This document shows, piece after piece, positions 35,653 through 58,565 of a stretch of DNA of 64,000 nucleotides; position 1 is the first letter of the stretch, and each line of letters starts with the position of its first letter. The position numbers and the translations under genes were made by a program. Source of the stretch: Acidobacteriota bacterium (lineage in GTDB: Bacteria > Acidobacteriota > Aminicenantia > JBFLYD01); NCBI GenBank assembly GCA_040756905.1, contig JBFLYD010000009.1, positions 4,854 to 68,853 of the forward strand. Reading direction: 5' to 3'. The notes under the pieces are model-generated. The model worked only from the letters and a program-made list of their open reading frames with translations, ran no database searches and was not told the DNA's origin.

Positions 35653-37017
35653 ATGATCCTGCAATCTATTAATCCTGCTAATGGAAAATTAATTGCTACC
35701 TTTGAGGAACATTCTTTAGATGAGATAAGAGAAAGTACAGGAAAGACCTGGGAGGCATTTCTTCTATGGAAAGAAACATCTTTCAGGGAGCGAAGCAATT
35801 TAATGAAAAAAGTTGCGTATCAATTAAGAACACATGGGGAGCATTATGGAAGAATTATAACCGAGGAGATGGGTAAACCCATTATCCAGTCCATTGCTGA
35901 GGTAGAAAAATGCGCCTGGGTGTGTGAGTACTATGCAGAGAATGCAGAAAGATTTTTAAAGGATGAACTGATAGAAACTGATGCGAGCAAGAGTTACGTT
36001 TGTTTTGAACCCCTGGGTGTTATTCTTGCTATAATGCCATGGAATTTCCCTTTCTGGCAGGTATTCAGGTTCGCAGCGCCGGCATTGATGGCTGGCAATG
36101 TGGCCCTTTTAAAGCATTCTTCTAACGTCCCGCGTTGTTCTTTAGCCATAGAAGAAGTATTCCAGAAAGCTGGCTTTCCACCCCATCTCTTTACAACTTT
36201 GTTGATAAGTTCAGAGAAGGTAGGAGATGTCATAAAGGATGATAAGATCAAAGCAGTAACTCTTACTGGCAGTGAAGATGCTGGAAGTAAGGTAGCAGAA
36301 ATAGCAGGCAGGGAGATTAAGAAAACTGTTCTGGAATTAGGGGGAAGCGATCCGTTCATAATCCTTCATGATGCAGATGTTAATGTTTGTGCCAGTGTAG
36401 GGACTCAGGCCAGAACGACCAATACAGGACAGAGTTGCATCGCTGCCAAGAGATTTATTGTAGTTGAAGAACAGGCCAAAGAGTTTGAAAGACTACTTAC
36501 CGAGAATATTGAAAAGTTAAAGGTTGGTGACCCTCTGGATAAAAATACTCAGATTGGACCCCTTGCCCGGAAAGACCTGCTACTGGAGTTAGATAAACAA
36601 GTCCAGGATTCCATAGCTCAAGGAGCAAAACTCCTGACCGGAGGAAAAAGGTTGGATAGACCTGGATTCTATTATGCTCCTACAGTTCTGACAGATGTAA
36701 GGGAAGGTATGCCGGTTTATAGAGAGGAAACCTTCGGTCCAGTTGCGGCTGTTATCAAGGTAAGGGATGAAGAGGAAGCTATCAGGATAGCTAACGCCAC
36801 ACGGTTTGGCCTGGGAGCCAGTCTATGGACAAAAGACTTGAAAAAGGCTGAAGAGTTAGCAAGGAAGATTGATTCAGGAATGGTTTTTATTAATGCTATG
36901 GTAAAATCAGACCCACGCCTGCCCTTTGGTGGAGTTAAGAAATCAGGCTATGGCCGGGAATTGTCCCATTATGGGATTAAAGAATTTGTAAACATTAAGT
37001 CAGTATGGATTGCTTAA
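35653..37017 (+). CDS. NAD(P)-dependent succinate-semialdehyde dehydrogenase (Sad/YneI-type aldehyde dehydrogenase).
   Basis: 454 aa collinear with E. coli YneI as recalled: MPWNFPFWQV, VLELGGSDPFI, catalytic Cys in QSCIAAKRF, and EETFGPVAAV. Also NTGQSC and GGVKKSGYGRELS. Confidence 0.85.
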   Translation: MILQSINPANGKLIATFEEHSLDEIRESTGKTWEAFLLWKETSFRERSNLMKKVAYQLRTHGEHYGRIITEEMGKPIIQSIAEVEKCAWVCEYYAENAERFLKDELIETDASKSYVCFEPLGVILAIMPWNFPFWQVFRFAAPALMAGNVALLKHSSNVPRCSLAIEEVFQKAGFPPHLFTTLLISSEKVGDVIKDDKIKAVTLTGSEDAGSKVAEIAGREIKKTVLELGGSDPFIILHDADVNVCASVGTQARTTNTGQSCIAAKRFIVVEEQAKEFERLLTENIEKLKVGDPLDKNTQIGPLARKDLLLELDKQVQDSIAQGAKLLTGGKRLDRPGFYYAPTVLTDVREGMPVYREETFGPVAAVIKVRDEEEAIRIANATRFGLGASLWTKDLKKAEELARKIDSGMVFINAMVKSDPRLPFGGVKKSGYGRELSHYGIKEFVNIKSVWIA

Positions 37018-37043
37018 CCTTTATACCTTATCGTCAACTTTTT

Positions 37044-37092
37044 TGACAATGAGCCGATGATTCCTTGACAATGAATTTTATCAGGTTATATC
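37044..37092 (+). promoter_or_regulatory. Candidate promoter with duplicated TTGACAATGA boxes upstream of the amidohydrolase operon.
   Basis: ttgacaatga at 37044 and at 37065, then a 16-nt spacer and TATATC. RBS AAGGAGGGGG before the ATG at 37146. Confidence 0.35.
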
Positions 37093-37145
37093 ATTATTTT
37101 TTTTCATACTTTATATTTAATGCAAAATCTTAAGAAGGAGGGGGT

Positions 37146-38897: not shown

Positions 38898-38905
38898 AAG
38901 GAGAG

Positions 38906-40237
38906 ATGAAAATGGGAAAAAATAAATCAAAATATATTTTATTTATTGTATTTATTTTATTTTCATTTTTTTGGGTAAGAGCAGAAGAAAAATCAGCCGG
39001 TGATAACCTTTTTATTTCTAAGGGGACTATTCTTACGATTACAAAGGGAAAGATTGAAGGTGGTTCTATTTTGATAAAGAATGGAAAAATCTTTGCAGTT
39101 GGTAAAGATTTAAAGCCACCTGAGGGAATTAAAATTATCGATGCAACAGGTAAGTATGTAATGCCAGGCATAATCGATTCCCATTCTCACATGGCAATCG
39201 ACAGAGGAATAAATGAATCAACTTCTCAGGTAACTCCCCAGGTAAACATTCAGGATGTGATAAAACATGATGACATTGCGATATACAGAGCACTGGCAGG
39301 AGGAACCACCTGCGTTCAACCTCTTCATGGAAGTGCAAATGTAATTGGAGGACATAATGCTGTTATAAAACTAAAATGGGGGAAGCCGCCTGAAGAACTT
39401 TTAGTTAAAGATTCAATGCAGGGAATAAAATTTGCCCTCGGAGAAAATCCAAAGAAGTCTAATTTTCCTATGCCCAGAGGCCCTGAATTTCCCAATACAA
39501 GAATGGGGATAGAATTTGTTATAAGAGATTCTTTCAATCATGCTTTAGAGTACATGAAAAAATGGGATGAATACCAGAAGAAAAAGTCATCTTTAAAGAA
39601 GGGAGAAATTCCACCCCTTCCCCCAAAAAGAGATTTAAAATTAGAAGCACTGGCTGATATATTAAAAAGAAACCTTGGGATCGTTTGCCATGGATACAGA
39701 GCTGATGAACTTTTGATGATGCTTAAAACTGCAGATGAGTATGGAGCAAAGGTTGTCTCTTTTGAACATTGTCTTGAAGGATACAAAGTTGCCGATGAGA
39801 TTGCAAAACATGGAACAGTTGCCTCGATATTTGCTGATAACTGGGCTTATAAAATCGAAGCTTTTGATGCAATTCCCTTCAATGCAGCCATTCTTACAGA
39901 AAGAGGAGTTGCTGTAACAGTTAATTCAGATTCAGATGAAAGAGTGAGGAGACTCTATCAGGATGCGGCAAAAACCATGAAGTATGGAGGATTAAGTGAA
40001 GAAGAGGCTCTCAAAACAATTACAATAAATCCTGCAAAGATGCTCGGAATTGACCACAGATGTGGAAGTATTGAGGTTGGGAAAGATGGAGATTTGGCTA
40101 TTTTTAATGGACATCCCTTGAGCGTCTATTCAAAAGTTTTGATGACGATAATTGAGGGAGAGGTTTATTTTGACATAGAAAAAGCTATAACCGCTGAAAA
40201 AGCCCTTGCGATGGCTAAAGAAAAAGAGAAAAAGTGA
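38906..40237 (+). CDS. Secreted amidohydrolase-family protein (paralogue).
   Basis: KGTILTITKGKIEGGSILIKNGKIFAVGKDL...PGIIDSHSHMAIDRG. 443 aa. Confidence 0.75.
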   Translation: MKMGKNKSKYILFIVFILFSFFWVRAEEKSAGDNLFISKGTILTITKGKIEGGSILIKNGKIFAVGKDLKPPEGIKIIDATGKYVMPGIIDSHSHMAIDRGINESTSQVTPQVNIQDVIKHDDIAIYRALAGGTTCVQPLHGSANVIGGHNAVIKLKWGKPPEELLVKDSMQGIKFALGENPKKSNFPMPRGPEFPNTRMGIEFVIRDSFNHALEYMKKWDEYQKKKSSLKKGEIPPLPPKRDLKLEALADILKRNLGIVCHGYRADELLMMLKTADEYGAKVVSFEHCLEGYKVADEIAKHGTVASIFADNWAYKIEAFDAIPFNAAILTERGVAVTVNSDSDERVRRLYQDAAKTMKYGGLSEEEALKTITINPAKMLGIDHRCGSIEVGKDGDLAIFNGHPLSVYSKVLMTIIEGEVYFDIEKAITAEKALAMAKEKEKK

Positions 40238-41559
40238 GGTGGAAGATGAAAGGAAAAATTTCTATTAAATTCATTGGATTATTATGCTTTCTTTTAATAC
40301 TGATAAATTATGTTTATTCGGAAGGCAATAAGGGATATGCGATTGTAAATGCATATATTTTCCCGGTGACATCGGCTCCGATTGAAAATGGTATATTGCT
40401 TATTAAAGACGACAAAATTGAAGCAATAGGAAAGGATTTGGAAGTTCCAGAAGGGTATGAAATAATAAATGCAAAAGGTCTATATGTTTATCCAGGGCTA
40501 ATTGATTCCTCCTCTTTTCTCGGTCTTTCTGAAATAGGTTCTGTTCGAGCAACAGTTGATACCTTTGAAATTGGAAATTTTAAGCCCCATATAAAAGCTG
40601 AGGTTGCGATAAATCCCCATAGTGAGTTAATTCCAGTTACAAGGGTTAATGGAATTGCAACTGTTCTTGTTTCTCCGAGAGGAGGCACGATAGCAGGACA
40701 GAGCGCTCTTGTAAACTTAATAGGCTGGACTCCTGAAGAGATGGTGTTGAAATCTCCAGCTGCCATTCACATTTCATATCCAAGAGTTATTGAGAGAAGG
40801 AGATTCGGAGCTCCAGGAGAAAAGCCCCAGGACGAAGCAGTGGCTCAAAAGCAATTGAAAGAATTGAAAGAATTTCTGGATAGAACAAAAAGATACATTG
40901 AAATCTGGGAAGCATACAATAAGGATAAAAAAGGCTCAATTCCTGAAAAAGACTTGATCCTGGAAGCTATGGCTCCTGCGTTAAAAGGAGAAATTCCTGT
41001 TGTAATTTCTGCAGATAAAGTAAAGGAGATAAAAGGAGCAATAGAACTTGCTGATGGATATAAAATGAAGCTCATTCTGAGTGGGGCATCTGAAGGCTGG
41101 AAGTGTGCAAAATTTATAGGAGAAAAAGGTGTTCCGGTGATACTCAGCTCTCTATTTTCTCTTCCGGGAGAAAAGGAACCTTATGATGCAATATACGCCA
41201 ATGCATCAATTCTTAATAAAGCAGGGGTAAAGGTAGTATTTTCCACTGAAAGCGCAAGCGATGTAAGAAATCTTCCCTATCAGGCTGGAACTGCCTCTGC
41301 CTATGGGCTTCCAAAAGAAGAAGCCCTGAAGGGCATAACGATATATCCTGCTGAAATTTTCGGGGTTCAGGATAAAATTGGGAGCTTGGAGAAAGGGAAA
41401 ATAGCCAACATAATTTTGACAGATGGAGACCCTCTGGAGATGAGAACACAAACAAAACATCTTTTTATAAAAGGGCAGAAACTTCCTCTTACAAGCAAGC
41501 ATATCGAACTGTATGAGAAATTCAGAAAAAGACCTTCCATAAAGTTTTTTAGCCGATAA
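40234..41559 (+). CDS. Secreted amidohydrolase-family protein (paralogue).
   Basis: AYIFPVTSAPIENGILLIKDDKIEAIGKDL...PGLIDSSS. 441 aa. Overlaps the previous gene by 4 nt. Confidence 0.7.
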   Translation: MRWKMKGKISIKFIGLLCFLLILINYVYSEGNKGYAIVNAYIFPVTSAPIENGILLIKDDKIEAIGKDLEVPEGYEIINAKGLYVYPGLIDSSSFLGLSEIGSVRATVDTFEIGNFKPHIKAEVAINPHSELIPVTRVNGIATVLVSPRGGTIAGQSALVNLIGWTPEEMVLKSPAAIHISYPRVIERRRFGAPGEKPQDEAVAQKQLKELKEFLDRTKRYIEIWEAYNKDKKGSIPEKDLILEAMAPALKGEIPVVISADKVKEIKGAIELADGYKMKLILSGASEGWKCAKFIGEKGVPVILSSLFSLPGEKEPYDAIYANASILNKAGVKVVFSTESASDVRNLPYQAGTASAYGLPKEEALKGITIYPAEIFGVQDKIGSLEKGKIANIILTDGDPLEMRTQTKHLFIKGQKLPLTSKHIELYEKFRKRPSIKFFSR

Positions 41560-48682: not shown

Positions 48683-49461
48683 TAAGAAAACGCATCAGAA
48701 GAAAAAGAACAAAACTAAGAAAAAGAATTGAAGGACTCCATCTTATTCCTGCAGTACTTACAATTGCCAATTTATTTTTTGGCTTTCTCGCAATAAAAAA
48801 TGTCATTTCTGAAAAATTTAAAATAGCTGCTCTAATGATTATTATTTCATGGATTCTGGATATACTCGATGGAAGAATTGCGAGGATTACAAAATCCGCA
48901 TCACACTTTGGAATTCAGATTGATTCTCTTGCAGATGCAATTTCCTTTGGCATAGCTCCTTCTTTACTGATTTATTACTGGGCTTTGAAAAACTTTTATC
49001 ATATTGGATGGGTGTTTGGATTTATATATTTAATGGCAGGAGTTTTGAGACTTGCAAGGTTTAATATAACTGCAGTTCCAGGAGAGGAGAAGAAGTATTT
49101 TATCGGATTACCAATCCCTGCCGCAGCAGTCTCAATTGCTGGCTTTGTTCTGTATAACAACAAAGTTGTGGAAGACAAACTGATTTTAATTCTACTAACA
49201 ATTTACATTCTATTTATTTCTTTGTTGATGATAAGCAATCTGAAATATACAAGCTATGAAAAATTGAATTTTAAGATTACAAAAAATTTCTGGATATTTT
49301 TGGTCTTGGCTATGTTTTTTGGGGTGTTTTATTTTTACTCTCAAATATCTGTTCTTTTAATCATTGTGCCATATATTTTTTATGCTCCATTTTTGTTGCT
49401 TCGGAAAAAGATGTTGACATTAATTAAAAAGAGAGAAAGAGAAGTTCTCGATGCCCAATAG
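48679..49461 (+). CDS. pssA: CDP-diacylglycerol--serine O-phosphatidyltransferase (PssA, CDP-alcohol phosphatidyltransferase family).
   Basis: DILDGRIARITKSASHFGIQIDSLADAISFG, matching DxxDGxxAR...GxxxDxxxD. Multi-TM. Confidence 0.8.
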   Translation: MIRKRIRRKRTKLRKRIEGLHLIPAVLTIANLFFGFLAIKNVISEKFKIAALMIIISWILDILDGRIARITKSASHFGIQIDSLADAISFGIAPSLLIYYWALKNFYHIGWVFGFIYLMAGVLRLARFNITAVPGEEKKYFIGLPIPAAAVSIAGFVLYNNKVVEDKLILILLTIYILFISLLMISNLKYTSYEKLNFKITKNFWIFLVLAMFFGVFYFYSQISVLLIIVPYIFYAPFLLLRKKMLTLIKKREREVLDAQ

Positions 49462-50464
49462 AAATTACAATTTAGCCATCCTTGGAGCAAATTCGTTTAG
49501 AGGCAAAGAGATTAAGAATCTGATAGAAAAGGCGGCTTTTCCATTGCGAAATATTGAATTTTTTGATTTCTCAGTAAAAGAGGAATGGAGCTTGTTAACA
49601 GAATTCAAAAATGAGGCAAAAATTGTAAGATATCCAGATGAAAATTATTTAGAGGATATCGATCTAATTTTTTTAGTCTCGGATACAGAATTCAATAAAG
49701 AATGGGGCAAGAAGGCAAAAAAAAAGAAAATTTTCGCAATCGACCTTGAATTTACCTTTAATGAAGAAGAGAACATTCCTTTAATAGTTGATGGAGTTAA
49801 CGAAGAACTATTGAAATTTGATGATTATATAGTTGCTAATCCCCATCCTATTGCTATTATTCTAAGCCTGGTTTTTAATTTTTTTGAAAAAAATTTTAAG
49901 ATAAAAAAAGCAATATCCATTTTTTATCAACCAGTATCAGAGTATCAGGATGAAGGAATAAAAGAATTTATTTCTCAAACGGTGGGAGTCTTAAACCTTA
50001 CTCAAATTCCTAAATCGATCTTTAAAGAACAGGTCGCCTTCAACATTATATCTCAGGTAGGGAAAGTTTCAGAGGATGGTATCACAGATCTCGAAAAAAA
50101 GATAATAAAAGAGACTGAAAGAATTTTGAGAAGAAGCGAGTTCTTTTCTCTTTCAATCATTCAAGTTCCAGTTTTTCATTCTTATTCTTCAATGATTTAT
50201 GTTGAATTTCCAGAAGAGATCCCATTTGAAGAAATTGAAAACCGGATGAAAAAAGTTCCCTTTTTTAAAATATTTCCATTAAAATCCGATCCTCCCACTC
50301 CTGTATCAGCATCAGGAGAAGATCGTATCTTTATCAAACTGAAGAAGGACCCTAATTTTCCTAATTGTTATTGGATATGGCTTGTTGCTGATAATTTAAG
50401 AAGAGGATGCACCTTAAATGCAATTCAAATTGCAAAAAATTTGTTGAATAGATTTCTTGTATGA
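49451..50464 (+). CDS. Asd/ArgC-like semialdehyde dehydrogenase-fold protein; the catalytic Cys and the GxxGxxG motif appear to be absent.
   Basis: Collinear with aspartate-semialdehyde dehydrogenase as recalled. ILGANSFRG occupies the Rossmann position, IVANPHPIAIILSLV replaces ANPNCSTI, and QVPVFHSYSSMIYVEF resembles RVPVFxGHSEAVxVEF. Confidence 0.5.
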   Translation: MPNRNYNLAILGANSFRGKEIKNLIEKAAFPLRNIEFFDFSVKEEWSLLTEFKNEAKIVRYPDENYLEDIDLIFLVSDTEFNKEWGKKAKKKKIFAIDLEFTFNEEENIPLIVDGVNEELLKFDDYIVANPHPIAIILSLVFNFFEKNFKIKKAISIFYQPVSEYQDEGIKEFISQTVGVLNLTQIPKSIFKEQVAFNIISQVGKVSEDGITDLEKKIIKETERILRRSEFFSLSIIQVPVFHSYSSMIYVEFPEEIPFEEIENRMKKVPFFKIFPLKSDPPTPVSASGEDRIFIKLKKDPNFPNCYWIWLVADNLRRGCTLNAIQIAKNLLNRFLV

Positions 50465-52266
50465 ATGATTATATAAAATTATTTTCCCTTATAAGCAAAA
50501 ACTGGAAAAAGATCGGTATCGCAATTTTTTCAATGGCGATGGTTGCTTTTTTTACAGCTACATTTACCCTCCTCATTCAACCAATCATGGATCATCTCTT
50601 TTTAAAAGGTTCAAAGGAAGCCCCTGTTGCATTTATTCCAAGAGATTTATTTTTGAAAATATTCCACATTCAAGAAACTCAACTTGAAGGTCTTCTACCA
50701 TTCCTTTTAGTTATGGTTTTTCTTGGAAAAGGATTTTTTACATTTTTATCCTCGTACAAAATGACTTCAATAGGCTTGACTGTTGTAAAATCCCTTAGAG
50801 ATAAACTTTATTCTCATCTCATAGATCAACCGATAAATTTTTTTATCAATAGGCCCACAGGAGAATTAATATCAAGGGTTACCAATGATATTGATAGAAT
50901 TCAGACAGCTCTTTCTGAAACTCTTGGAGATCTAATAAGAGAATCTTTTACTTTGATAGGTCTTCTATTTGTAATATTTTATCAGGACTGGAAATTAGCT
51001 TTCATATCATTACTTTTAATTCCAATGGCATCGATTCCCATAATCGGATTCGGTAAGAAGCTTAAGAGAAAAGGGCTTCTCGGTCAGAAAAAGATGGCTG
51101 ATATTTCAAATATTATTTTTGAAACTGTTAAAGGAAACAGAATAGTCAAAGCTTTTAACATGGAGAAGTTTGAAAAGAAAAAGTTTTTAAAATTAACAGA
51201 TGATCATTTCAAAGTTCATCTGAAAATGTCTCGAATTAGCTCATTTAACTCACCTTTCATGGAGTTTTTAGGAGCCTTCGTTGCTGCGTTTATTCTTTGG
51301 GTGGGAACGAGGAAGATAGTATCAGGAGCTGTAACCCCTGGACAATTTACTTCTTTTCTCACGGCGATGTTTTTAATGTATGCTCCAGTAAAAAGGTTAA
51401 GCAAGGTTAATTTTAATATTCAACAAGCTCTTGTTGGATTGGAAAGAATAGAAGAAATTATGAAAGAGCAACCCGAAGTTAAAGAAAGGGGTGGATTATT
51501 AACTCTTCCAAGAGTTAAAGGTTTACTGGAGTTTAGAAATGTAAGCTTTTCATATAGCGATAAAAATTTTGTTCTGAAAGATGTGAGTTTTAAAGCTGAA
51601 CCTGGTGAGTTAGTAGCAATTGTTGGATTGAGTGGAGCAGGTAAAACAACTTTGATAAACCTCATTCCGAGATTTTATGAAATGAACTTGGGTGAGATAA
51701 CGATTGATAATTATGATATAAGAAGTATTACTCTAAGTTCTTTAAGAGCTCAGATTGGGTTGGTTACCCAGGATATAATTCTTTTTAACGATACAGTTAA
51801 GAACAATATTGTCTATGGATTAGAGAACATATCCGAAGTAAAGATTGTTGAATCCGCAAAAGCAGCGATGGCTCATGATTTTATAATGAATCTTTCAGAT
51901 GGATATGAAACTGTGATAGGCGAGGGTGGCCAGATTCTTTCCCTTGGACAAAGACAGAGAATAGCAATTGCAAGGGCGATATTAAAAGACCCTCCAATTC
52001 TTATCCTTGATGAAGCCACATCCCAGCTTGATTCTGAATCTGAGAGAGCTATCCAGATGGCCCTTGAAAATTTAATGAAGAATCGAACAACCATTGTTAT
52101 AGCTCATAGACTTTCCACGATTAGGAAAGCTGACAAGATATTGGTAATAGATAAAGGAACTATCGTTGAGCAAGGCACTCATGAAAGTTTATTGAAAAAG
52201 AGGGGAATATATGCCCATCTTTATGTCCTGCAATTTCCTGAATTACTCAACGAGCAACAGGCATGA
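50461..52266 (+). CDS. msbA: Lipid A/lipid export ABC transporter, fused permease-ATPase (MsbA-like).
   Basis: Six-TM N-terminal domain. Walker A GLSGAGKTT, LSLGQRQRIAIARAIL, Walker B ILILDEATSQLD and the H-loop IAHRLST. Confidence 0.85.
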   Translation: MNDYIKLFSLISKNWKKIGIAIFSMAMVAFFTATFTLLIQPIMDHLFLKGSKEAPVAFIPRDLFLKIFHIQETQLEGLLPFLLVMVFLGKGFFTFLSSYKMTSIGLTVVKSLRDKLYSHLIDQPINFFINRPTGELISRVTNDIDRIQTALSETLGDLIRESFTLIGLLFVIFYQDWKLAFISLLLIPMASIPIIGFGKKLKRKGLLGQKKMADISNIIFETVKGNRIVKAFNMEKFEKKKFLKLTDDHFKVHLKMSRISSFNSPFMEFLGAFVAAFILWVGTRKIVSGAVTPGQFTSFLTAMFLMYAPVKRLSKVNFNIQQALVGLERIEEIMKEQPEVKERGGLLTLPRVKGLLEFRNVSFSYSDKNFVLKDVSFKAEPGELVAIVGLSGAGKTTLINLIPRFYEMNLGEITIDNYDIRSITLSSLRAQIGLVTQDIILFNDTVKNNIVYGLENISEVKIVESAKAAMAHDFIMNLSDGYETVIGEGGQILSLGQRQRIAIARAILKDPPILILDEATSQLDSESERAIQMALENLMKNRTTIVIAHRLSTIRKADKILVIDKGTIVEQGTHESLLKKRGIYAHLYVLQFPELLNEQQA

Positions 52267-53117
52267 TAAACAGTATGACAGGTTATGCTCAAAAGAGGTT
52301 TTTTTATCCTGGTCTCGACTTTTTTATTTCGTTGAAATCAGAAAATCATAGATATTTTGAATGGGAGTTTAGATCCAATCCTCAAATTGTTGAACTTGAA
52401 AAGAGAATTTTAAAAATAGTAAAAAAGGAGATTTTTAGAGGAAAGATATATATAAATTTTGAAATAAATTTTTTAAATTCAGATAGATGGAAAATTAATT
52501 TTAACGCATTTCTTTTTGATAAAATTTTGAATCACTATCCATTGCTGAAAAATGAGGTCATCAAGTTCCCAGAGATATTTTCTCTTAAGCTAAATGAGTC
52601 AGCTATATCTAATGAAGACTGGAGAAAATTCGAGAAAGGATTCAGAGAAGTCCTGAATATGATCCTCAAGGAAAGAAAAAAGGAGGGGAAGTTTATCGAA
52701 AAAAATTTGAAAGCCTCCATAGGGAAAATTGAATTTTCTTTAAACAATATAGAAAAAAATGTCTCATGGCATTCAGAAGAAGTAAAAAGAAATCTCAGTT
52801 CAAAGATAGAAAAAATGCTTGATCGATCACCCGAAGATAAAGGTAGATTTTTTGAGGAAATTGCGTATTTATCCCAGAGAATGGATATTTCTGAAGAAAT
52901 AACAAGGATAAAATCGCATGTAAATGCTTTAAGAAAAATTATCGAAATAAAAAACAAAATTTCTAAGGGTAAAAACATGGATTTTCTGGTTCAGGAGATT
53001 CTAAGAGAAGTAAACACAATAAATTCAAAGACTGAAAATATTAAGATAATAAGGGAAGGATTGAAGATAAAGGCAGAGGTTGATAAAATTAGAGAACAGG
53101 CAAGGAATGTAGAATGA
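52263..53117 (+). CDS. yicC: YicC-family protein.
   Basis: N-terminal MINSMTGYAQ (the MTGFG-like start). 284 aa with a C-terminal DUF1732-like coiled region. Confidence 0.7.
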   Translation: MINSMTGYAQKRFFYPGLDFFISLKSENHRYFEWEFRSNPQIVELEKRILKIVKKEIFRGKIYINFEINFLNSDRWKINFNAFLFDKILNHYPLLKNEVIKFPEIFSLKLNESAISNEDWRKFEKGFREVLNMILKERKKEGKFIEKNLKASIGKIEFSLNNIEKNVSWHSEEVKRNLSSKIEKMLDRSPEDKGRFFEEIAYLSQRMDISEEITRIKSHVNALRKIIEIKNKISKGKNMDFLVQEILREVNTINSKTENIKIIREGLKIKAEVDKIREQARNVE

Positions 53118-53725
53118 AAGGTTCGATTGTATTTGTAATTACAGGACCATCTGGTTCAGGAAAGTCCACCCTTGTTAAACTATTACTGAATTCTATCCCG
53201 GATATTTATTTTACAGTTTCTCATACCACCAGAGAATCTCGGCCGAATGAATTGAATGGAACCGATTATTATTTTGTTTCAGAAGAAAAATTTAAAAAAA
53301 TGATAAATCAGGAAAAATTTCTGGAATGGGCTATAGTTCATGGAAATTATTATGGCACCTCTCATTCAGAGATAAACAGGGGTATTAAAAAAGGGATTGA
53401 CCTCCTGTTAGATCTTGATATACAGGGTGCTATGAATATAAGGAAGAAACTCAAGAATTGTGTATTTATATTTGTAGTTCCACCTTCAATCAATGAGATA
53501 AAAAAAAGGATTATTTTAAGGGGTACTGAAGATGAATCAGAGATTGGAAAAAGATTAAAGAATGCAAAGAATGAGATTAAAAAATGGAAATCATTTGAAT
53601 ACATTGTAATTAATGATAGCCTTAAAAGAGCGGTTTATGAACTCCAATCAATAATAAATGCGGAAAGGGCAAAAAGATTTAGAAGGGAAGAAAAAATAAA
53701 AGAGCTATTCTTAAATTTTTATTAA
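53114..53725 (+). CDS. gmk: Guanylate kinase.
   Basis: [29 protein letters not shown](L)NGTDYYFVS and WAIVHGNYYGTS. Confidence 0.9.
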   Translation: MKGSIVFVITGPSGSGKSTLVKLLLNSIPDIYFTVSHTTRESRPNELNGTDYYFVSEEKFKKMINQEKFLEWAIVHGNYYGTSHSEINRGIKKGIDLLLDLDIQGAMNIRKKLKNCVFIFVVPPSINEIKKRIILRGTEDESEIGKRLKNAKNEIKKWKSFEYIVINDSLKRAVYELQSIINAERAKRFRREEKIKELFLNFY

Positions 53726-53728
53726 AAA

Positions 53729-54907
53729 ATGAAGATTGCATTAGGAGTTTGTTCATCAATCAGTGCTTATAAATCTGTGGAGATAATGCGGGAATTTCAA
53801 AAAAAGAATGTCGAAGTAGAGGTTATAATGACAAAGAATGCTACTAAGCTGATTTCGCCCCTTACCTTTCAGGTTCTCTCCAGAAAAAAAGTCTATGTGG
53901 AACAGTTTGATGAAATAGAAACAGAAGTAGCCCACATAAAACTTTCTAAGGAAATTTCCCTTTTGGTGGTTGCTCCTGCCACTGCTAACATTATTTCAAA
54001 ATTTGCTTCTGGAATAGCAGATGATTTTTTAAGCACACTATTCATTTCAGTTAAATGCCCTGTTCTTATAGCTCCAGCCATGCATTCAGAGATGTATAAT
54101 AACCCTATAATACAGCAGAATATGGAGAAGCTGAAATTGATGGGTGTTCATTTTGTAGAGCCATCATTTGGATATCTTGCCTCTGGAGATGAAGGCATTG
54201 GAAGGCTGGCTGATCCTCATTGTATAGTTGATAAGGCCATGGAAATTTTAAACATCAAGCAATCTTTAAAAGGAAAGAAAATAATGGTGACTGCAGGACC
54301 AACTCAGGAAAGTATAGACCCTGTGAGGATAATCACTAATAGGTCTTCTGGAAAAATGGGGATTTTTCTTGCTGAAGAGGCAGAAAAAAGGGGTGCTGCA
54401 GTAAAGTTAATATTGGGTCCTACATTGCAAAAGGCCAACATAAGAGGTGAATTGATAAATGTGGAAACAACATTAGATATGGAAAAAGAATGTCTCAAAC
54501 ATTGGAATGAAACTGATATAGGAATAATGGCAGCCGCACCTTCTGATTATAGACCAACTGAATATTTTAGAGATAAGATAAAAAAGGAGAATGAAAAAAT
54601 AAGTTTAGAGTTCCTACGAAATCCGGATATATTAAAACAGATGGGCGAGAAAAAGGGTGATAAAATTCTCATTGGATTTGCTGCAGAATCAGAAAATAAA
54701 ATAAATAATGCAAAGAAGAAATTGATGGAAAAAAATTTGGATTTTATAGTTTTAAACGATATTACTAAAAAGGGGATAGGGTTTGGGTCTGATTTTAATG
54801 AGATATCGATAATCCATAGAAATGGAAGAATATTAAAATCCGGAAGGAAAACTAAAAGAGAAATTGCATCACTTATAATCGATGAAATAGAAAAAATCAT
54901 AAAATAA
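53729..54907 (+). CDS. coaBC: Bifunctional phosphopantothenoylcysteine decarboxylase/phosphopantothenate--cysteine ligase CoaBC.
   Basis: N-terminal flavoprotein region (IALGVCSSISAYKSVEIMR...PAMHSEMY) and a C-terminal ligase region (KIMVTAGPTQE...NRSSGKMG). 392 aa. Confidence 0.9.
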   Translation: MKIALGVCSSISAYKSVEIMREFQKKNVEVEVIMTKNATKLISPLTFQVLSRKKVYVEQFDEIETEVAHIKLSKEISLLVVAPATANIISKFASGIADDFLSTLFISVKCPVLIAPAMHSEMYNNPIIQQNMEKLKLMGVHFVEPSFGYLASGDEGIGRLADPHCIVDKAMEILNIKQSLKGKKIMVTAGPTQESIDPVRIITNRSSGKMGIFLAEEAEKRGAAVKLILGPTLQKANIRGELINVETTLDMEKECLKHWNETDIGIMAAAPSDYRPTEYFRDKIKKENEKISLEFLRNPDILKQMGEKKGDKILIGFAAESENKINNAKKKLMEKNLDFIVLNDITKKGIGFGSDFNEISIIHRNGRILKSGRKTKREIASLIIDEIEKIIK

Positions 54908-54927
54908 TTCTTTTCCCATTCTTCAAA

Positions 54928-55572
54928 ATGAAAAAAGAGATTTTAAACTGGCTTAAATTTTTTCAGGAAATTGATGTGGAAAATTTAAATTTAAAAAAAA
55001 ATCTAAAGAAGGAAAAACTATGGGAGTTGGAAAAAGATGTTTTGAATTGCAAAGCATGCCCTCTTCATGAAGTAAAAATTAACTATGTTTTTGGTGAAGG
55101 AAATCCTGGTGCAGAAATTTTATTTGTTGGAGAAGCTCCTGGTGAAGATGAAGATATACAGGGAAGACCTTTTGTGGGAGAGGCTGGAAAACTATTAACG
55201 AAGATAATAGAAGGGATGAAATTCAACAGAGATGATGTTTACATTGCAAATGTTCTCAAATGCAGACCACCGAATAATAGAAATCCAAAAGCTCCAGAGA
55301 TTGAACAATGTAAAAAATATTTAATAAAGCAGATAGAGATTATAAATCCAAAAGTTATCATAGCTTTGGGAAAAATAGCGTCGAGTACACTTTCGGGAGA
55401 AAACATTTCAATTTTATCAAGAAGGGGGGAAATACTCTATTTTAAAAACATTCCATTGATTCCTACCTTTCATCCTGCATTCATTCTAAGAAATAGACAT
55501 CAGGAGAAAATGCTCAAAAAACTTGTTTGGAAAGATATAAAAACAGCTTTGAAAATAATCAACAGGGTCTAA
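54928..55572 (+). CDS. Uracil-DNA glycosylase, family 4 (Fe-S containing).
   Basis: CKACPLHE, GEGNPGAEILFVGEAPGEDEDIQGRPFVGEAGKLL and ANVLKCRPPNNRNP. Confidence 0.85.
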   Translation: MKKEILNWLKFFQEIDVENLNLKKNLKKEKLWELEKDVLNCKACPLHEVKINYVFGEGNPGAEILFVGEAPGEDEDIQGRPFVGEAGKLLTKIIEGMKFNRDDVYIANVLKCRPPNNRNPKAPEIEQCKKYLIKQIEIINPKVIIALGKIASSTLSGENISILSRRGEILYFKNIPLIPTFHPAFILRNRHQEKMLKKLVWKDIKTALKIINRV

Positions 55573-57465
55573 ATGAATAATCAACTCGTTGAAGTTGCCC
55601 TTCCTTTACCAATAATAAATAATTTCATATATAAAGTGCCTGAAGATTTAAGGGATAAAGTTTCAACAGGAAAAAGGGTGAGGGTTTCTTTTAAGAACAG
55701 GCATTATACAGGATTCATAGTGAATTCCTCACCAGAACAGACCATCTCAGGAGAAATAAAAGAAGTGGAAGAAATCATAGATGATGAGGTATTGATAACA
55801 GAGGATGTTTTTCTTATGTGTAAAAAAGTTTCAGAGTATTTTTTTTGCAGCTTAGGAGAATTGTTATCTTCGATACCTTTGTCTAATAGAAAGGCAGAGT
55901 TTAAAGACCTTTCCAGATCAGAAAATCTCGAACTTAAAAGAATTCCAGATATTTTAATAGAATTTCTTAAGGAAAAAAAACCTTTATTAATAAAGGGGTC
56001 TCGGGATGAAAGAATAAATATGTATATAGCCCTTGCAATTAATGAAGTAGAAAAAGGGAAAAATGTCTTGATCCTATTTCCTGAGGTTTCTGATCTTGAA
56101 TACTTTGAAGAAATAATTAGACCTCAAAGACTCAAGACTTCATTTATTTCCGGAAAATTAAGCAAGAGGAAAAAAGAAATTGAATGGGTTGAGATAAAAA
56201 ATGGAATGAGAACCATTATTTCAGGAACATTTCCTGTTCTTTTTTATTCTATCCCAAATTTATCTCTGATAATAATCGATGGAGAAGAGGGTCTTTCTTA
56301 CATAAAACAGAACAGTCCAAAATATAATATAAAAGAAGTTGCTTTTATTAAAGCTCAGCTTATGAACTCCTCAATTATCCTCGGCTCTGATTCACCTTCT
56401 GTGGAATCCATTTTTAAAGTAAAAAGAAAAGATTTTTCTTTCTACGAGCTTGACAATGACAGAAAGAAATCTTTAAGGGTCAAATTTTTGAGGTCTAAAA
56501 AAGTAATATCTGATGAATTAAAAAACGAAATAGATAAAAATCTTAAGCAAAAAAATAAGATGATTTTTTTTGTTAACAGGAAGGGCTTGGGAAGTTTTTT
56601 GGTCTGCAATAATTGTGGTTTCATAAAGAATTGTAAAAATTGTAATATTCCCCTTCGTTTTCATCAGGAGAATTTATTAATATGTCATTTTTGTGGATAT
56701 TCAGAAAATGTGGAGAGATTATGTCCTGGATGTAAATCAAAATTGAGAGCAGTTGGATGGTTTGGAACTGAGAGGGTCTACCATGAATTGAAATCAATTT
56801 ATCCGGAAAAGAAAATAGAAATTTTAGACCTCGAAAGATGTAGAAGTAAGAAAGCTCAGAACAAGATATGGCAAGAATTTCTTTACAATAATACAGAGAT
56901 AATGATTGGAACTCAATTAATTTTAAGTTATAAGCATTTTGATAGGATTAGAATTCCTCTATTAGTGCTCCTGAATCCTGAATCAAGTCTATCTTTTCCA
57001 GATTATAGGTTTTCAGAAAATACTTTTCATATAATTGATAAATTACTTCTTTCAGTTGAAGATGAAGGAAAGGTAATAGTCCAGAGCAGTGGACATCTTC
57101 ATTACAGTATAATTTCTCCTCTTTCATTCAACAATGATTTATTTTATAAAGAAGAGTTATTATATAGAGAAATTATGCAGTATCCTCCCTTTTTCTCAAT
57201 TGTCAAATTATTAATTCCAGGAAGGAAAAGGAGAAGTATTGGCACAAAAGCCAGAAAAATATTGGAAACAATAAAAATACATGAAAATGGGTTTAAAGTT
57301 TATGGTCCAAATTTCGCTCCGATTTCCAAATTAAAAGGATTATGGAGGGTTCAGCTGATTTTAAAAGGAGATATAACTGAGATAAGGAAATTTCTCAGAG
57401 AGAACATCGATGTATTCTTAAAGGAAAAAATCAACATCGAGATAAATCCTCTCTCCACTCTCTGA
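55573..57465 (+). CDS. priA: Primosomal protein N' (PriA) homologue with degenerate ATPase/helicase motifs.
   Basis: Collinear with PriA. N-terminal 3' DNA-binding-like region and an intact Cys-rich zinc motif (CNNCGFIKNCKNCNIP...CHFCGY...CPGCKS). Walker A GVTGSGKT is replaced by IKGSRDER, DEEH by DGEE, SAT by SDS, and QxxGRAGR by QSSGHLH. Confidence 0.7.
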   Translation: MNNQLVEVALPLPIINNFIYKVPEDLRDKVSTGKRVRVSFKNRHYTGFIVNSSPEQTISGEIKEVEEIIDDEVLITEDVFLMCKKVSEYFFCSLGELLSSIPLSNRKAEFKDLSRSENLELKRIPDILIEFLKEKKPLLIKGSRDERINMYIALAINEVEKGKNVLILFPEVSDLEYFEEIIRPQRLKTSFISGKLSKRKKEIEWVEIKNGMRTIISGTFPVLFYSIPNLSLIIIDGEEGLSYIKQNSPKYNIKEVAFIKAQLMNSSIILGSDSPSVESIFKVKRKDFSFYELDNDRKKSLRVKFLRSKKVISDELKNEIDKNLKQKNKMIFFVNRKGLGSFLVCNNCGFIKNCKNCNIPLRFHQENLLICHFCGYSENVERLCPGCKSKLRAVGWFGTERVYHELKSIYPEKKIEILDLERCRSKKAQNKIWQEFLYNNTEIMIGTQLILSYKHFDRIRIPLLVLLNPESSLSFPDYRFSENTFHIIDKLLLSVEDEGKVIVQSSGHLHYSIISPLSFNNDLFYKEELLYREIMQYPPFFSIVKLLIPGRKRRSIGTKARKILETIKIHENGFKVYGPNFAPISKLKGLWRVQLILKGDITEIRKFLRENIDVFLKEKINIEINPLSTL

Positions 57466-57494: not shown

Positions 57495-58565
57495 TTAGGT
57501 TTTAGATAATTTTATTTGTATTTCCTCTGATATTTTTTTCCATACCTCTAAATCTACGGATAAGAAAGCTTCAATAATTTTAGGGTCAAATTGAGTTCCG
57601 GAGTTTTTCTTAATTTCCTCTCTGGCATATTCAAAAGAGTAAGCCTTTCTGTAGGGCCTATCCGAAGTTAATGCATCTAAAGCATCGGCTACAGCAAAAA
57701 TTCTCGCCCCTAAGGGAATTTCATCGTTTTTCTTTCCATAAGGATACCCTGTTCCATCATAATTTTCATGATGGTAAAGAACTATGATCGAAGCGGGTTG
57801 AAGGAATTTAACTTTCCTCATCATGTTATAACCAATCTCTGAGTGTGTTTTCATTGTTTCCCATTCTTCCGGGGATAACTTCTCTGGCTTTCTGAGGATA
57901 TAATCTGGAATCGCAATCTTACCAATGTCGTGCAATAAAGCTGCTCTTCGAAGAGTGATAAGTTCATCTTTATCTTCAATACCATAAGATTCAGCTATTT
58001 TTATTGCATATTCAGTTACTCTATTGGAATGACCATGGGTCTCAGTATCTCTGAAATCAAGAGCAAGTATCAAGGAATTTAAAGTTTCATTGTATGTCTC
58101 GTTTAGTTCCTCTAACGCTTTTTTTAATTCATTTGTTCTCTCCTCAACCATCTCCTCCAGATGTTTCTGGTATCTTAGATTCTCCAGAACAAGCCTTCTT
58201 TTTTCAAGACCTCTTTTTACATTTATTACAACTTCTGAGAGTTTAAATGGTTTTATCACGTAATCATAAGCACCAAGAGTCATTGCATCTATAGCAATGT
58301 TGATATCTTTAAGAGCTGACATCATAATAATTCCCATGTGAGGGTCAATCTCCTTTAGCTCTTTGAGCAGTTCAAGGCCGCTTTTGCCTGGCATTCTTAT
58401 ATCAGTAATTAGTAAAGAAAAATTATTTTCTCCCTTAAAAATTTTTAGAGCCTCTTCAGCATTAGATGCTGTAACACATTCATAACCTTGGCCTTCAAGA
58501 AATTCTAAAAGTAACTCTCTTATTGTTTCTTCATCATCAACTATCAAGATTTTTTCTTTCTCCAT
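57495..58565 (-). CDS. Response-regulator receiver plus HD-GYP domain protein (RpfG-like c-di-GMP phosphodiesterase).
   Basis: Receiver ILIVDDEETIRELL...D(54-like)IRMPGKSGLEL. HD-GYP HDIGKIAIPD...HHENYDGTGYP. Confidence 0.85.
   Translation of the reverse strand: MEKEKILIVDDEETIRELLLEFLEGQGYECVTASNAEEALKIFKGENNFSLLITDIRMPGKSGLELLKELKEIDPHMGIIMMSALKDINIAIDAMTLGAYDYVIKPFKLSEVVINVKRGLEKRRLVLENLRYQKHLEEMVEERTNELKKALEELNETYNETLNSLILALDFRDTETHGHSNRVTEYAIKIAESYGIEDKDELITLRRAALLHDIGKIAIPDYILRKPEKLSPEEWETMKTHSEIGYNMMRKVKFLQPASIIVLYHHENYDGTGYPYGKKNDEIPLGARIFAVADALDALTSDRPYRKAYSFEYAREEIKKNSGTQFDPKIIEAFLSVDLEVWKKISEEIQIKLSKT

What the first reader, a model, noticed from the sequence alone, without database searches (positions are those of the whole stretch)
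55573..57465. PriA homologue with systematically degenerate helicase/ATPase motifs but an intact zinc-binding region
The protein is collinear with PriA along its whole length, yet every ATPase determinant is altered. Walker A GVTGSGKT becomes IKGSRDER and Walker B/DExH DEEH becomes DGEE. Motif III SAT becomes SDS, and the arginine-finger motif QxxGRAGR becomes QSSGHLH. The Cys4-type zinc motifs (CNNC...CKNC...CHFC...CPGC) are preserved. This pattern argues for a replication-restart scaffold that binds forks but cannot unwind. I recall that the Deinococcus radiodurans PriA is similarly reported to lack helicase motifs; if so, this would be an independent case in a different lineage. It raises the question of which helicase is loaded.
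Basis: partly seen in the sequence, partly recalled or inferred. Interest (0 to 1): 0.6.

Follow-up and report, generated by a model that had tools for sequence, protein, structure and literature searches.

The report
ATPase-dead PriA restart protein, Aminicenantia
This gene encodes an intact, well-folded copy of the replication-restart protein PriA whose ATP-burning motor site has been destroyed; the same loss is shared by a whole uncultured bacterial class (Aminicenantia) and kept under selection, giving a second lineage-wide example, after Deinococcus-Thermus, of a PriA "pseudohelicase".

Summary
The ORF 55573..57465(+) is real, 630 aa, and is a PriA (TIGR00595 301 bits, cut-off 230; Pfam 3'BD, Cys-rich Zn ribbon and CTD above threshold; AlphaFold pLDDT 90, TM 0.86 to E. 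coli PriA). The ATP site is gone. The Walker A loop is one residue short and reads G-SRDERI, so E. coli K230 is Arg147. DEEH is DGEE and SAT is SDS. Motif VI (QxxGRxGR) is KLLLS plus a 3-residue deletion, with no arginine. All eight CRR cysteines are present.

This is not an isolated case. All 21 Ca. Aminicenantes genome loci recovered, and a 632-aa sister subclade, share the P-loop deletion, the Lys-to-Arg change (100% Arg) and the loss of both motif VI arginines. The 58 PriAs from other taxa in the same scan, including two other Acidobacteriota-labelled MAGs, are canonical. The window shares the Asd-ABC-YicC-Gmk-CoaBC-UDG-PriA gene order with Aminicenantes, so this is the orthologous priA. 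Close Aminicenantes pairs give dN/dS of 0.15-0.22, like their neighbours.

Best reading: a selected, helicase-dead fork-recognition and helicase-loading scaffold. It is a new member of the pseudohelicase kind established biochemically for Deinococcus radiodurans PriA. Biochemistry is untested.

The parts
55573..57465 (+). priA orthologue, 630 aa, ATPase-dead ('pseudohelicase') form
   Evidence: ORF; TIGR00595 301 bits > 230 cut-off; PDB PriA E=7e-55; AF2 pLDDT 90.1, TM 0.86 to 8FAK chain H
55591..55872 (+). 3' DNA-binding domain (aa 7-100); pocket Tyr20 and Lys63 kept, E. coli Asp17 position is Ile19, Gly37 position absent
   Evidence: PF17764 E=6.5e-22; alignment to E. coli 4-103; pocket residues from PMC5778457
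55873..55947 (+). short flexible linker (aa 101-125) in place of the winged-helix domain
   Evidence: large deletion relative to long-form PriAs; pLDDT <50 at aa 112-118
55996..56016 (+). remnant of Walker A / motif I: G142-S-R-D-E-R147-I148, one residue shorter than GxxGxGKT; Arg147 at the E. coli K230 position
   Evidence: K 100% in 58 canonical PriAs, R 100% in 21 dead-clade sequences
56278..56289 (+). remnant of Walker B / motif II: DGEE instead of DEEH
56386..56394 (+). remnant of motif III: SDS instead of SAT
56605..56733 (+). Cys-rich region, four CxxC pairs (two Zn sites), all eight Cys intact
   Evidence: PF18319 30.4 bits > 26; invariant in A2/A4 and in all 80 loci
57040..57057 (+). 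true motif VI position: K490-LLL-S494-V495 with a 3-residue deletion; both arginine fingers absent
57082..57102 (+).
57187..57450 (+). PriA C-terminal domain (aa 539-626)
   Evidence: PF18074 38.6 bits > 26.9; pLDDT about 90
49451..55572 (+). co-directional upstream block Asd (49451-50464), ABC exporter (50461-52266), YicC (52263-53117), Gmk (53114-53725), CoaBC (53729-54907), family-4 UDG (54928-55572), whose order marks this priA as the positional orthologue of Aminicenantes priA
   Evidence: Pfam; same order in L003, L006-L008, L010-L014, L016, L017, L019, L020, L022, L066

Best explanation
The gene is the single, orthologous priA of an Aminicenantia-related bacterium (Acidobacteriota). It encodes a PriA that keeps the PriA architecture without the winged helix: 3' end-binding domain, two RecA-like lobes, two-zinc Cys-rich region and C-terminal domain. 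It can no longer bind or hydrolyse ATP, so it is a pseudohelicase.

Proposed mechanism (inferred). It recognises abandoned forks or D-loops through the 3'BD, the retained DNA-contact motifs of the lobes (Ia PE, IV NRxG, V GTQ), the CRR and the CTD. It then serves as a static platform that recruits the replicative helicase, either directly as shown for D. radiodurans PriA-DnaB or through an unknown adaptor. It does not unwind the lagging-strand arm itself. Restart should therefore be limited to forks that already expose lagging-strand ssDNA, or should depend on another helicase or on SSB remodelling.

Shown here: family membership, the motif states, clade-wide sharing of the loss, conserved synteny, purifying selection in the clade, and a confident PriA-like fold.

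Inferred: loss of ATPase/helicase activity (from E. coli K230R and D. radiodurans), retained fork binding, and the helicase-loading role.

The ancestor of the clade lost the P-loop (one-residue deletion plus Lys to Arg) and the arginine fingers. Other ATP-site residues then decayed independently in the sublineages. The window's protein is the most eroded version seen.
For: PriA identity.

ATP-site loss at aligned positions, against 91-100% conservation in 58 canonical PriAs.

Retained residues: motif Ia PE, IV N335/G338 (R337 to K in the query), V G446-T447-Q448, D477/R479, 8 Cys, Y20, K63.

Clade-wide trait: all 21 Ca. Aminicenantes species-representative loci are dead, while all 58 loci from other taxa, including two Acidobacteriota-labelled MAGs (L021, L025), are canonical. 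The 631-632-aa sister subclade P0024/P0197-P0207 (P0207 labelled Ca. Aminicenantia) shares the WH loss and the motif VI deletion with the query. P0108/P0320 are Ca. Aminicenantes single-cell genomes.

Orthology: identical Asd-ABC-YicC-Gmk-CoaBC-UDG-PriA order.

Selection: NG86 dN/dS for PriA is 0.15 (L002/L014, dS 0.36) and 0.22 (L004/L011, dS 0.81), against 0.11-0.26 for neighbouring genes. Every domain, including both lobes, gives 0.07-0.26; only the 35-codon linker is higher (0.26-0.49). R147 is 100% Arg in the clade.

Independent decay: the query keeps K454, E482, T399, D419 and P626, which the long forms lost, and has lost H193, S194, R220-A222, E237 and D240, which they keep.

Precedents: E. 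coli priA300 (K230R) abolishes ATPase/helicase yet supports PriA-PriB restart (PMC5778457). D. radiodurans PriA has no ATPase or helicase activity but binds ssDNA and forks and interacts with DnaB (PMC4504706).
Against: No biochemical data exist for any member of this clade.

The window protein itself is a singleton (nearest relative 35% identical). Purifying selection was therefore measured only on its relatives, not on this gene.

It is the fastest-evolving gene of the syntenic block: 30.5% median identity against 33-53% for the neighbours. It has also lost lobe-1 DNA-contact residues (motif Ib/Ic) and the Asp17 and Gly37 positions of the 3'-end pocket. DNA binding could be weakened or altered.

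The rest of the genome could not be searched, so a second, canonical priA or a replacement restart system cannot be excluded.

A weak second nucleotide site has been proposed for E. coli PriA (PMC5778457) and cannot be assessed here.
Confidence: 0.72

Rival explanations
1. Decaying pseudogene. The gene has lost its function altogether and is on the way to disappearing in a streamlined, AT-rich genome.
For: It is the most divergent gene of its operon. It has extra losses beyond those of its relatives, in motif Ib/Ic, motif II Glu237 and the 3'BD Asp17 position. It is a singleton cluster in 5.8 billion proteins.
Against: The reading frame is open for 630 codons (P about 9e-22 by chance at 32% GC) and abuts the upstream gene's stop codon. 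All eight Zn-ligand Cys and 39 of 54 clade-retained PriA signature residues are kept. AlphaFold gives pLDDT 90 and pTM 0.89. The same dead state has persisted across an entire class, with dN/dS 0.15-0.22 in every domain.
Confidence: 0.05
2. Still an enzyme. The protein binds and hydrolyses ATP through a non-canonical or relocated site, with the conserved Arg147 substituting for Lys, and remains a helicase or translocase.
For: Arg147 is 100% conserved in the clade, and D236 and E238 of motif II are retained. Both lobes are under purifying selection. A second weak nucleotide site has been proposed for E. coli PriA.
Against: The P-loop is one residue short and lacks the Gly before the Lys position and the Ser/Thr after it. 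The conserved Gln of the upstream LxxEQ element, the motif III Thr and both motif VI arginines are gone, and the query also lacks the catalytic Glu of DExH. The single K230R change is enough to abolish ATPase and helicase activity in E. coli PriA, and the K-to-R-bearing D. radiodurans PriA has no measurable ATPase.
Confidence: 0.06
3. Neofunctionalised copy. A canonical priA elsewhere in the genome performs restart, and this protein has a different job, for example a DNA-structure sensor linked to the adjacent uracil-DNA glycosylase.
For: Only 64 kb of the genome is visible. The UDG-PriA adjacency is tight and conserved. The short-form sister subclade sits in a different gene context.
Against: The gene occupies the ancestral priA position. 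The Gmk-CoaBC-priA linkage is also seen with canonical PriAs in Bacillota loci L068 and L075, and UDG-PriA with the canonical PriA of L021. There is no second priA in the window or within 8 kb of any of the 21 Aminicenantes loci.
Confidence: 0.12

Closest known systems
Deinococcus radiodurans PriA (Deinococcus-Thermus PriA pseudohelicases; Lopper, Boone & Morrow 2015, PMC4504706)
   Same: It is a full-length PriA homologue with poor matches to Walker A and B. The catalytic Lys of GKT is replaced by Arg, and the CRR is retained. The loss is lineage-wide rather than sporadic. The presumed role is a restart scaffold without unwinding.
   Different: The phylum is different: the loss here is nested inside Acidobacteriota, where two other MAGs keep canonical motifs. 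Here the P-loop also carries a one-residue deletion, motif VI has lost both arginines, and in the window protein 3 residues of motif VI and the winged-helix domain are missing. The Deinococcus protein has been shown biochemically to lack ATPase and helicase activity, to bind ssDNA and forks, and to interact with DnaB; nothing has been measured for this clade. I could not obtain a Deinococcus-Thermus sequence to align, so common descent by transfer is not formally excluded.
E. coli PriA K230R (priA300)
   Same: The same substitution sits at the same position (query R147 = E. coli K230). The mutant shows that a PriA without ATPase, helicase or translocase activity can still assemble a primosome and support near-wild-type growth (PMC5778457).
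   Different: It is an engineered point mutant in an otherwise canonical enzyme, and it depends on PriB because the PriA-PriC route needs the helicase. The natural protein has lost the whole ATP site, and no PriB or DnaT is known or visible for this lineage.
Canonical PriA (E. coli / K. pneumoniae; PDB 4NL4, 6DGD, 8FAK)
   Same: Domain order and fold match (TM 0.86 to 8FAK chain H). The 3'BD, CRR with two Zn sites, CTD and DNA-contact motifs Ia, IV and V are shared.
   Different: The query lacks a working Walker A, DExH, motif III and motif VI, has no winged-helix domain, and shows 24% identity in the structural alignment.
E. coli PriA with the winged-helix domain deleted (PDB 6DCR)
   Same: The architecture is the same without the WH domain. 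Many natural canonical PriAs of 610-670 aa also lack it (for example P0007, P0008, P0020).
   Different: 6DCR is an engineered, ATPase-competent construct.

Membership tests
PriA (primosomal protein N' / replication restart protein; TIGR00595) | Whole-protein match to the curated equivalog model above its cut-off | tested here: met
   TIGR00595 301.2 bits against a cut-off of 230.35, aa 149-625. The narrower NF0040xx and NF0114xx equivalogs are far below their cut-offs.
PriA (primosomal protein N' / replication restart protein; TIGR00595) | N-terminal 3' DNA-binding domain | tested here: met
   PF17764 77.6 bits > 22.7. Tyr20 and Lys63 of the pocket are kept, while the Asp17 position is Ile and the Gly37 position is missing.
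PriA (primosomal protein N' / replication restart protein; TIGR00595) | Cys-rich region CxxC x4 binding two Zn, inserted in helicase lobe 2 | tested here: met
   PF18319 30.4 bits > 26. All 8 Cys are present and invariant in the clade. Zinc binding itself was not tested.
PriA (primosomal protein N' / replication restart protein; TIGR00595) | PriA C-terminal (S10-like) domain | tested here: met
   PF18074 38.6 bits > 26.9.
PriA (primosomal protein N' / replication restart protein; TIGR00595) | Two RecA-like SF2 lobes in the PriA arrangement | tested here: met
   AF2 pLDDT 90.1. The top nine PDB matches are all PriA chains (TM 0.67-0.86); the next family, Mfd, reaches TM 0.45 at most. No Pfam DEAD, ResIII or Helicase_C model reaches its threshold.
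PriA (primosomal protein N' / replication restart protein; TIGR00595) | SF2 ATPase motifs I (GxxGxGKT), II (DExH), III (SAT) and VI (QxxGRxGR) | tested here: not met
   G-SRDERI, DGEE, SDS and KLLLS plus a 3-aa deletion. It is therefore a PriA by descent and architecture but not a PriA helicase.
PriA (primosomal protein N' / replication restart protein; TIGR00595) | Winged-helix domain between the 3'BD and lobe 1 | tested here: not met
   It is absent. This feature is variable in the family, since canonical short PriAs also lack it, so its absence does not exclude membership.
PriA pseudohelicase (kind defined on D. radiodurans PriA) | Walker A Lys replaced (Lys to Arg), with poor Walker A/B matches in an otherwise PriA-like protein | tested here: met
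   R147 sits at the K230 position, and motif II is DGEE. The definition is taken from PMC4504706.
PriA pseudohelicase (kind defined on D. radiodurans PriA) | No ATP hydrolysis and no duplex unwinding in vitro | not testable with these tools
   Needs purified protein. It is predicted from the motif states and from the E. coli K230R precedent.
PriA pseudohelicase (kind defined on D. radiodurans PriA) | Retained ssDNA and fork binding, and interaction with the cognate DnaB | not testable with these tools
   The only indirect evidence is conservation of the 3'BD, CRR, CTD and motifs Ia, IV and V, and purifying selection.
PriA pseudohelicase (kind defined on D. radiodurans PriA) | Belongs phylogenetically to the Deinococcus-Thermus PriA clade | not tested
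The synteny and the canonical PriAs in other Acidobacteriota MAGs argue for a separate origin.

The most novel reading that the evidence does not exclude
Loss of the PriA motor is not a Deinococcus curiosity. It may be a recurrent, positively maintained state in several deep, mostly uncultured lineages: all of Aminicenantia, plus cases in Omnitrophota, CPR Peribacteraceae and others. In this reading the remnant P-loop has been re-used, with the strictly conserved Arg147 acting with D236/E238 as an inter-lobe latch or a DNA-phosphate contact. That would hold PriA in one conformation and make restart in these organisms depend on a different remodeller or loader from any characterised pathway.
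Probability: 0.25. Interest if true: 0.6.

Novelty: new member of a known kind. Interest (0 to 1): 0.4.

Why it matters
[quoted passage not shown] The present data show that an entire class of Acidobacteriota carries an ATPase-dead PriA at the ancestral locus and under purifying selection. That includes 21 species-level genomes, a sister subclade and this window. Unrelated lineages show similar losses.

This turns a one-phylum exception into a pattern. It gives a natural, independently evolved counterpart to the E. coli K230R experiment. It also provides a comparative data set showing which residues survive when the motor is gone: the CRR, 3'BD, CTD and motifs Ia, IV and V. Those are the residues likely to matter for PriA's non-enzymatic, fork-recognition and loading functions. 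It sharpens the open question of how DnaB is reloaded in bacteria that lack PriB, DnaT and PriC.

The practical consequence is small: current annotation as "replication restart helicase PriA" overstates the activity.

Tried and rejected
1. Conformational-state idea. The AF2 model of the query matches fork/PriB-bound E. coli PriA (8FAK, TM 0.86, rmsd 4.4) better than the apo and ADP forms (TM 0.75-0.77, rmsd about 7). That suggested a constitutively 'CRR-up' scaffold. A control model of a canonical, ATPase-competent WH-less PriA (P0008) shows the same preference (0.86 against 0.72). The effect is generic to AlphaFold and PriA, so I dropped the idea.

2. The first genome-contig scan, with the window protein alone, found no relative. 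The scan with the tighter alignment A3 worked.

3. The search for homologous proteins with the clade profile A2 returned only the sequences already known, so that search was wasted.

4. The look-up of encoding contigs for the window protein itself returned nothing on record.

5. Literature searches for PriA with Aminicenantes, for actinobacterial PriA motif loss, and for Rv1402 found no report of degenerate motifs outside Deinococcus-Thermus. Rocha et al. 2005 only call the actinobacterial PriA 'smaller and very divergent'. From memory, and unverified here, UniProt flags the M. tuberculosis PriA as lacking detectable helicase domains. If that is right, it lowers the novelty further.

6. The NJ tree places almost all dead PriAs on one side. 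I do not take this as evidence of a single origin for all of them, because long-branch attraction among fast-evolving sequences is likely. Only the Aminicenantia grouping is backed by taxon labels, shared indels and synteny.

7. Entropy comparisons between the dead clade and pan-bacterial canonical PriAs are confounded by taxonomic breadth. I used only the position-wise kept/lost lists and dN/dS.

8. The split priA in the complete Aminicenantes chromosome (L066) looked like a pseudogene, but the frameshift lies in a G-homopolymer of a long-read assembly. I treat it as a probable sequencing error.
Full report
WHAT IS THERE. The window has an uninterrupted ORF at 55573..57465 on the + strand, 630 aa. 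Its ATG follows the TAA of the upstream gene without a gap. It is the last gene of a tightly packed co-directional block: phosphatidylserine decarboxylase, CDP-alcohol phosphatidyltransferase, Asd, an ABC exporter, YicC, Gmk, CoaBC and a family-4 uracil-DNA glycosylase. A convergent HD-GYP response regulator follows. The window is AT-rich (about 32% GC), and the gene itself is 31% GC.

FAMILY. Pfam finds the PriA 3' DNA-binding domain (aa 7-100, E=6.5e-22), the PriA Cys-rich zinc ribbon (aa 354-378) and the PriA C-terminal domain (aa 539-626). All three are above their gathering scores. No DEAD, ResIII or Helicase_C model passes. NCBIfam TIGR00595 (priA) scores 301 bits against a cut-off of 230. 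The best solved relatives are E. coli and K. pneumoniae PriA (E=7e-55 to 9e-53), collinear over aa 6-106 and 147-598. An AlphaFold2 model built on a 44-sequence alignment is confident (mean pLDDT 90.1, pTM 0.89). Only residues 112-118 fall below 50. Its nine best PDB matches are all PriA chains (TM 0.67-0.86), and the next family, Mfd, reaches only 0.45. So the protein is a PriA by sequence, domain order and predicted fold.

I placed the motifs by alignment to canonical PriAs.
- Walker A: canonical F-L-L-H-G-V-T-G-S-G-K-T-E-V-Y aligns to L-L-I-K-G-(gap)-S-R-D-E-R-I-N-M-Y. The loop is one residue short. The Gly preceding the Lys is Glu146, the Lys is Arg147 and the Thr is Ile148.
- The HMMER alignment to 8FAK chain H puts query residue 147 opposite residue 230, the catalytic K230 of E. 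coli PriA.
- Motif II DEEH is D236-G-E-E239.
- Motif III SAT is S272-D-S274.
- Motif VI QxxGRxGR corresponds to K490-L-L-L-S494 followed by a three-residue deletion, with no arginine.
It aligns to the conserved QT(Y/x)xPxH that follows it, and Q504 is invariant across PriAs.

The winged-helix domain (E. coli 109-181) is replaced by a linker of about 25 residues. The Gln of the LxxEQ element upstream of Walker A is gone. I take this element to be the SF2 Q-motif position, from general knowledge of SF2 helicases. K244 next to motif II, at the start of the aromatic-rich loop region, is lost, as are R296, R417 and the lobe-1 motifs HS and GxRSA.

IT IS A CLADE, NOT A ONE-OFF. An exhaustive phmmer search of 1.84 billion representatives found 16,896 PriA relatives. 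The nearest (P0024) is only 35% identical but collinear over 3-628. Scoring motif states by aligned column in the best 171 sequences showed that 40 lack a functional Walker A. Across all 172 aligned sequences, 26 have Arg at the Lys position. The query sits inside a group of 20-25 such sequences. Taxon labels place this group:
- P0049's cluster includes 'Candidatus Aminicenantes bacterium'.
- P0108 and P0320 are Ca. Aminicenantes single-cell and composite genomes.
- P0207, in the query's sister subclade, is 'Candidatus Aminicenantia bacterium'.
- The window protein itself is deposited as 'MAG: Acidobacteriota bacterium'.

A scan of one genome per GTDB species, using the 716-aa subgroup as query, returned 80 loci. 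I extracted the PriA ORF from each locus and aligned them.
- All 21 loci of the Aminicenantes group (L001-L020, L022; some carry other automatic labels), plus the frameshifted L066, have the one-residue P-loop deletion with Arg at the Lys position where those columns are readable (e.g. FYLHA-SRQKREAIY). L019 (truncated) and L066 (frameshifted) are each unreadable for part of the motifs. They have also lost both motif VI arginines and keep all eight cysteines.
- All 58 other loci are canonical (GxxGSGKT, DEE[HQ], S/T-A-T, QxxGRxGR). These come from Zixibacteria, Krumholzibacteriia, Latescibacterota, Desulfobacterota, Chloroflexota, Bacillota, Proteobacteria and others. They include two MAGs labelled Acidobacteriota, L021 and L025.

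ORTHOLOGY. I used the window's own proteins as probes. The order Asd-ABC-YicC-Gmk-CoaBC-UDG-PriA is identical in the window and in the Aminicenantes loci long enough to show it. UDG-PriA adjacency also occurs in L021, which has a canonical PriA. YicC-Gmk-(CoaBC)-PriA occurs in Bacillota loci L024, L039, L068 and L075. The window gene is therefore the positional orthologue of an ancestrally canonical priA, and the ATP site was lost in situ within the Acidobacteriota. There is no other PriA-like sequence in the 64-kb window (tblastn) or in the flanks of those loci. No replication partner gene is visible in the window.

SELECTION.
- Between the window and the Aminicenantes loci, PriA is the most diverged gene of the block. 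Median identities are PriA 30.5%, YicC 33%, Asd 41%, UDG 47%, Gmk 48%, CoaBC 51% and ABC 53%.
- It is not drifting, however. Nei-Gojobori dN/dS for the two least saturated Aminicenantes pairs is 0.15 (dS 0.36) and 0.22 (dS 0.81), inside the 0.11-0.26 range of the neighbouring genes.
- Per domain, the 3'BD, WH region, both RecA-like lobes, the CRR and the CTD all give 0.07-0.26.
- Of 87 positions at least 90% conserved in canonical PriAs, 54 are retained in the long-form Aminicenantes. These include motif Ia P-E-I, HS, W205, GxRSA, D236, E238, Y243, G271/S272/P275, N335/R337/G338 of motif IV, the eight Cys, G446/T447 of motif V, D477/R479, Q504/T505, R532, P538/P539 and R592.
- The 33 lost positions are concentrated in the ATP site.
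- Arg147 is 100% Arg in the clade and 100% Lys outside it.

POSITION OF THE WINDOW PROTEIN IN THE CLADE. The window protein keeps 39 of the 54 retained positions. It is still canonical at 13 positions the long forms have lost, for example K454, E482, T399, D419 and P626. That pattern fits one ancestral inactivation followed by independent erosion. The window protein shares the WH deletion and the three-residue motif VI deletion with the 631-632-aa subclade P0024/P0197-P0207. That subclade sits in a different gene context, after an 814-aa radical-SAM gene. For the window gene itself no close relative exists, so dN/dS could not be computed. The supporting evidence is the open frame (P about 9e-22 by chance), the retained signature residues and the confident fold.

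MECHANISM. Established knowledge of the family:
- E. coli PriA K230R (priA300) has no ATPase, helicase or translocase activity. It still assembles primosomes in vitro and behaves nearly like wild type in vivo, but it depends on PriB (PMC5778457).
- D. radiodurans PriA naturally carries Lys to Arg. It has no measurable ATPase or unwinding, binds ssDNA (Kd about 215 nM) and forks (about 109 nM), and interacts with DnaB (PMC4504706).
- In E. coli the CRR rotates to encircle at least 9-11 nt of lagging-strand ssDNA and exposes the partner-binding surface. A duplex lagging arm has to be unwound first (PMC13594977).

On this basis I infer that the window protein is a static fork-recognition and helicase-recruitment platform. 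The 3'BD, the CRR, the CTD and the retained DNA-contact motifs of the lobes position it on an abandoned fork or D-loop. The CRR, and possibly lobe 2 and the CTD, would present the docking surface for DnaB or an adaptor. Exposure of lagging-strand ssDNA would have to come from the fork structure itself, from SSB displacement or from another helicase.

The strict conservation of Arg147, together with D236 and E238, suggests a structural role for the dead P-loop, but I could not test this. The extra losses in the window protein (motif Ib/Ic, and the Asp17 and Gly37 positions of the 3'-end pocket) mean its DNA binding may differ from that of canonical PriA.

RIVALS. I considered three alternatives.
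- A decaying pseudogene is unlikely given the open frame, conserved cysteines, confident fold and clade-level purifying selection.
- Residual enzymatic activity is unlikely, because every ATP-contacting element is gone and K230R alone kills the E. coli enzyme.
- A neofunctionalised copy alongside a canonical priA cannot be excluded without the rest of the genome. Synteny argues against it, as does the absence of any canonical Aminicenantes PriA among the loci recovered.

COMPARISON AND NOVELTY. The kind, a PriA pseudohelicase, is known from Deinococcus-Thermus. The review literature treats that phylum as the sole exception. My searches of the held literature found no mention of Aminicenantes or Acidobacteriota PriA. 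This gene is therefore a new member of a known kind, and the lineage-wide loss in Aminicenantia appears to be unreported. Dead PriAs also occur in an Omnitrophota cluster (P0107), in a CPR Peribacteraceae MAG (P0023) and at isolated tips inside canonical clades (P0133, P0169). These cases suggest recurrent loss.

I could not align a Deinococcus-Thermus sequence. Independence from that phylum therefore rests on the nested phylogenetic position and the synteny, not on a joint tree. One idea was tested and rejected: the apparent 'fork-bound' conformation of the model is also produced for a canonical control.

VERDICT. The interest is moderate. A replication-restart specialist would not be astonished, given Deinococcus and priA300. 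Even so, a second, class-wide, selection-maintained loss broadens the picture and supplies useful comparative data.

Noticed in passing
window 54928-55572 / 55573; loci L001-L022, L021, L047: A family-4 uracil-DNA glycosylase gene directly abuts priA (stop 55570-55572, ATG 55573). The UDG-to-PriA adjacency recurs in all Aminicenantes loci, in an Acidobacteriota MAG with a canonical PriA (L021) and in an Exilispira MAG (L047). This may indicate a functional link between uracil excision at forks and restart.
   Followed up: partly
proteins P0107 (Ca. Omnitrophota cluster), P0023 (Ca. Peribacteraceae, CPR), P0027, P0133, P0169 and others: ATPase-dead PriAs also occur outside Aminicenantia. About 40 of the 171 closest PriA representatives lack a working Walker A, and many have Arg at the Lys position. 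P0023 has additionally lost several CRR cysteines in alignment A1. This suggests recurrent, independent loss of the PriA motor in uncultured lineages.
   Followed up: partly
L066 7950-10150 (OY969762.1, complete Ca. Aminicenantes chromosome): priA is split into two overlapping ORFs. The frameshift lies in a G-homopolymer (ccgccggggggagcgg, about L066 9246-9261) of a long-read assembly, so it is probably a sequencing error and not a true pseudogene.
   Followed up: partly
L081 7564-11896, L082 4749-9084: The 631-632-aa short-form Aminicenantia PriA subclade (P0206) is not in the Gmk-CoaBC-UDG block. It overlaps the end of an 814-aa radical-SAM (DUF2344) gene, so priA has been relocated in that sublineage.
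   Followed up: no
window 35653-41559: This stretch has higher GC (0.37-0.39 against about 0.32) and positive GC skew. It carries an aldehyde dehydrogenase and three consecutive amidohydrolase-family genes, and may be an acquired catabolic island.
   Followed up: no
window 20763-22925(-), 26738-28213(-), 564-1433(-), 4815-5369(-), 7800-8315(-), 8423-9133(-): Six ORFs of 171-720 aa have no Pfam match at E<=1e-5. The group at 4.8-9.1 kb flanks a 533-aa N6/N4 DNA methylase (5563-7164) and a tRNA gene (9642-9714), which resembles a small mobile or restriction-modification region.
   Followed up: no
window 57495-58565(-) and 24533-25633(-): There are two HD-GYP-type (HD_5) proteins, one fused to a response-regulator receiver and one to a GAF domain, which points to cyclic-di-GMP turnover signalling in this organism.
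   Followed up: no
locus titles (L004, L005, L007, L008, L012-L020): Many loci with Aminicenantes-type PriA and Aminicenantes synteny are deposited as 'uncultured Eubacteriales' or 'Clostridiales bacterium'. The labels look like automatic mis-assignments.
   Followed up: no
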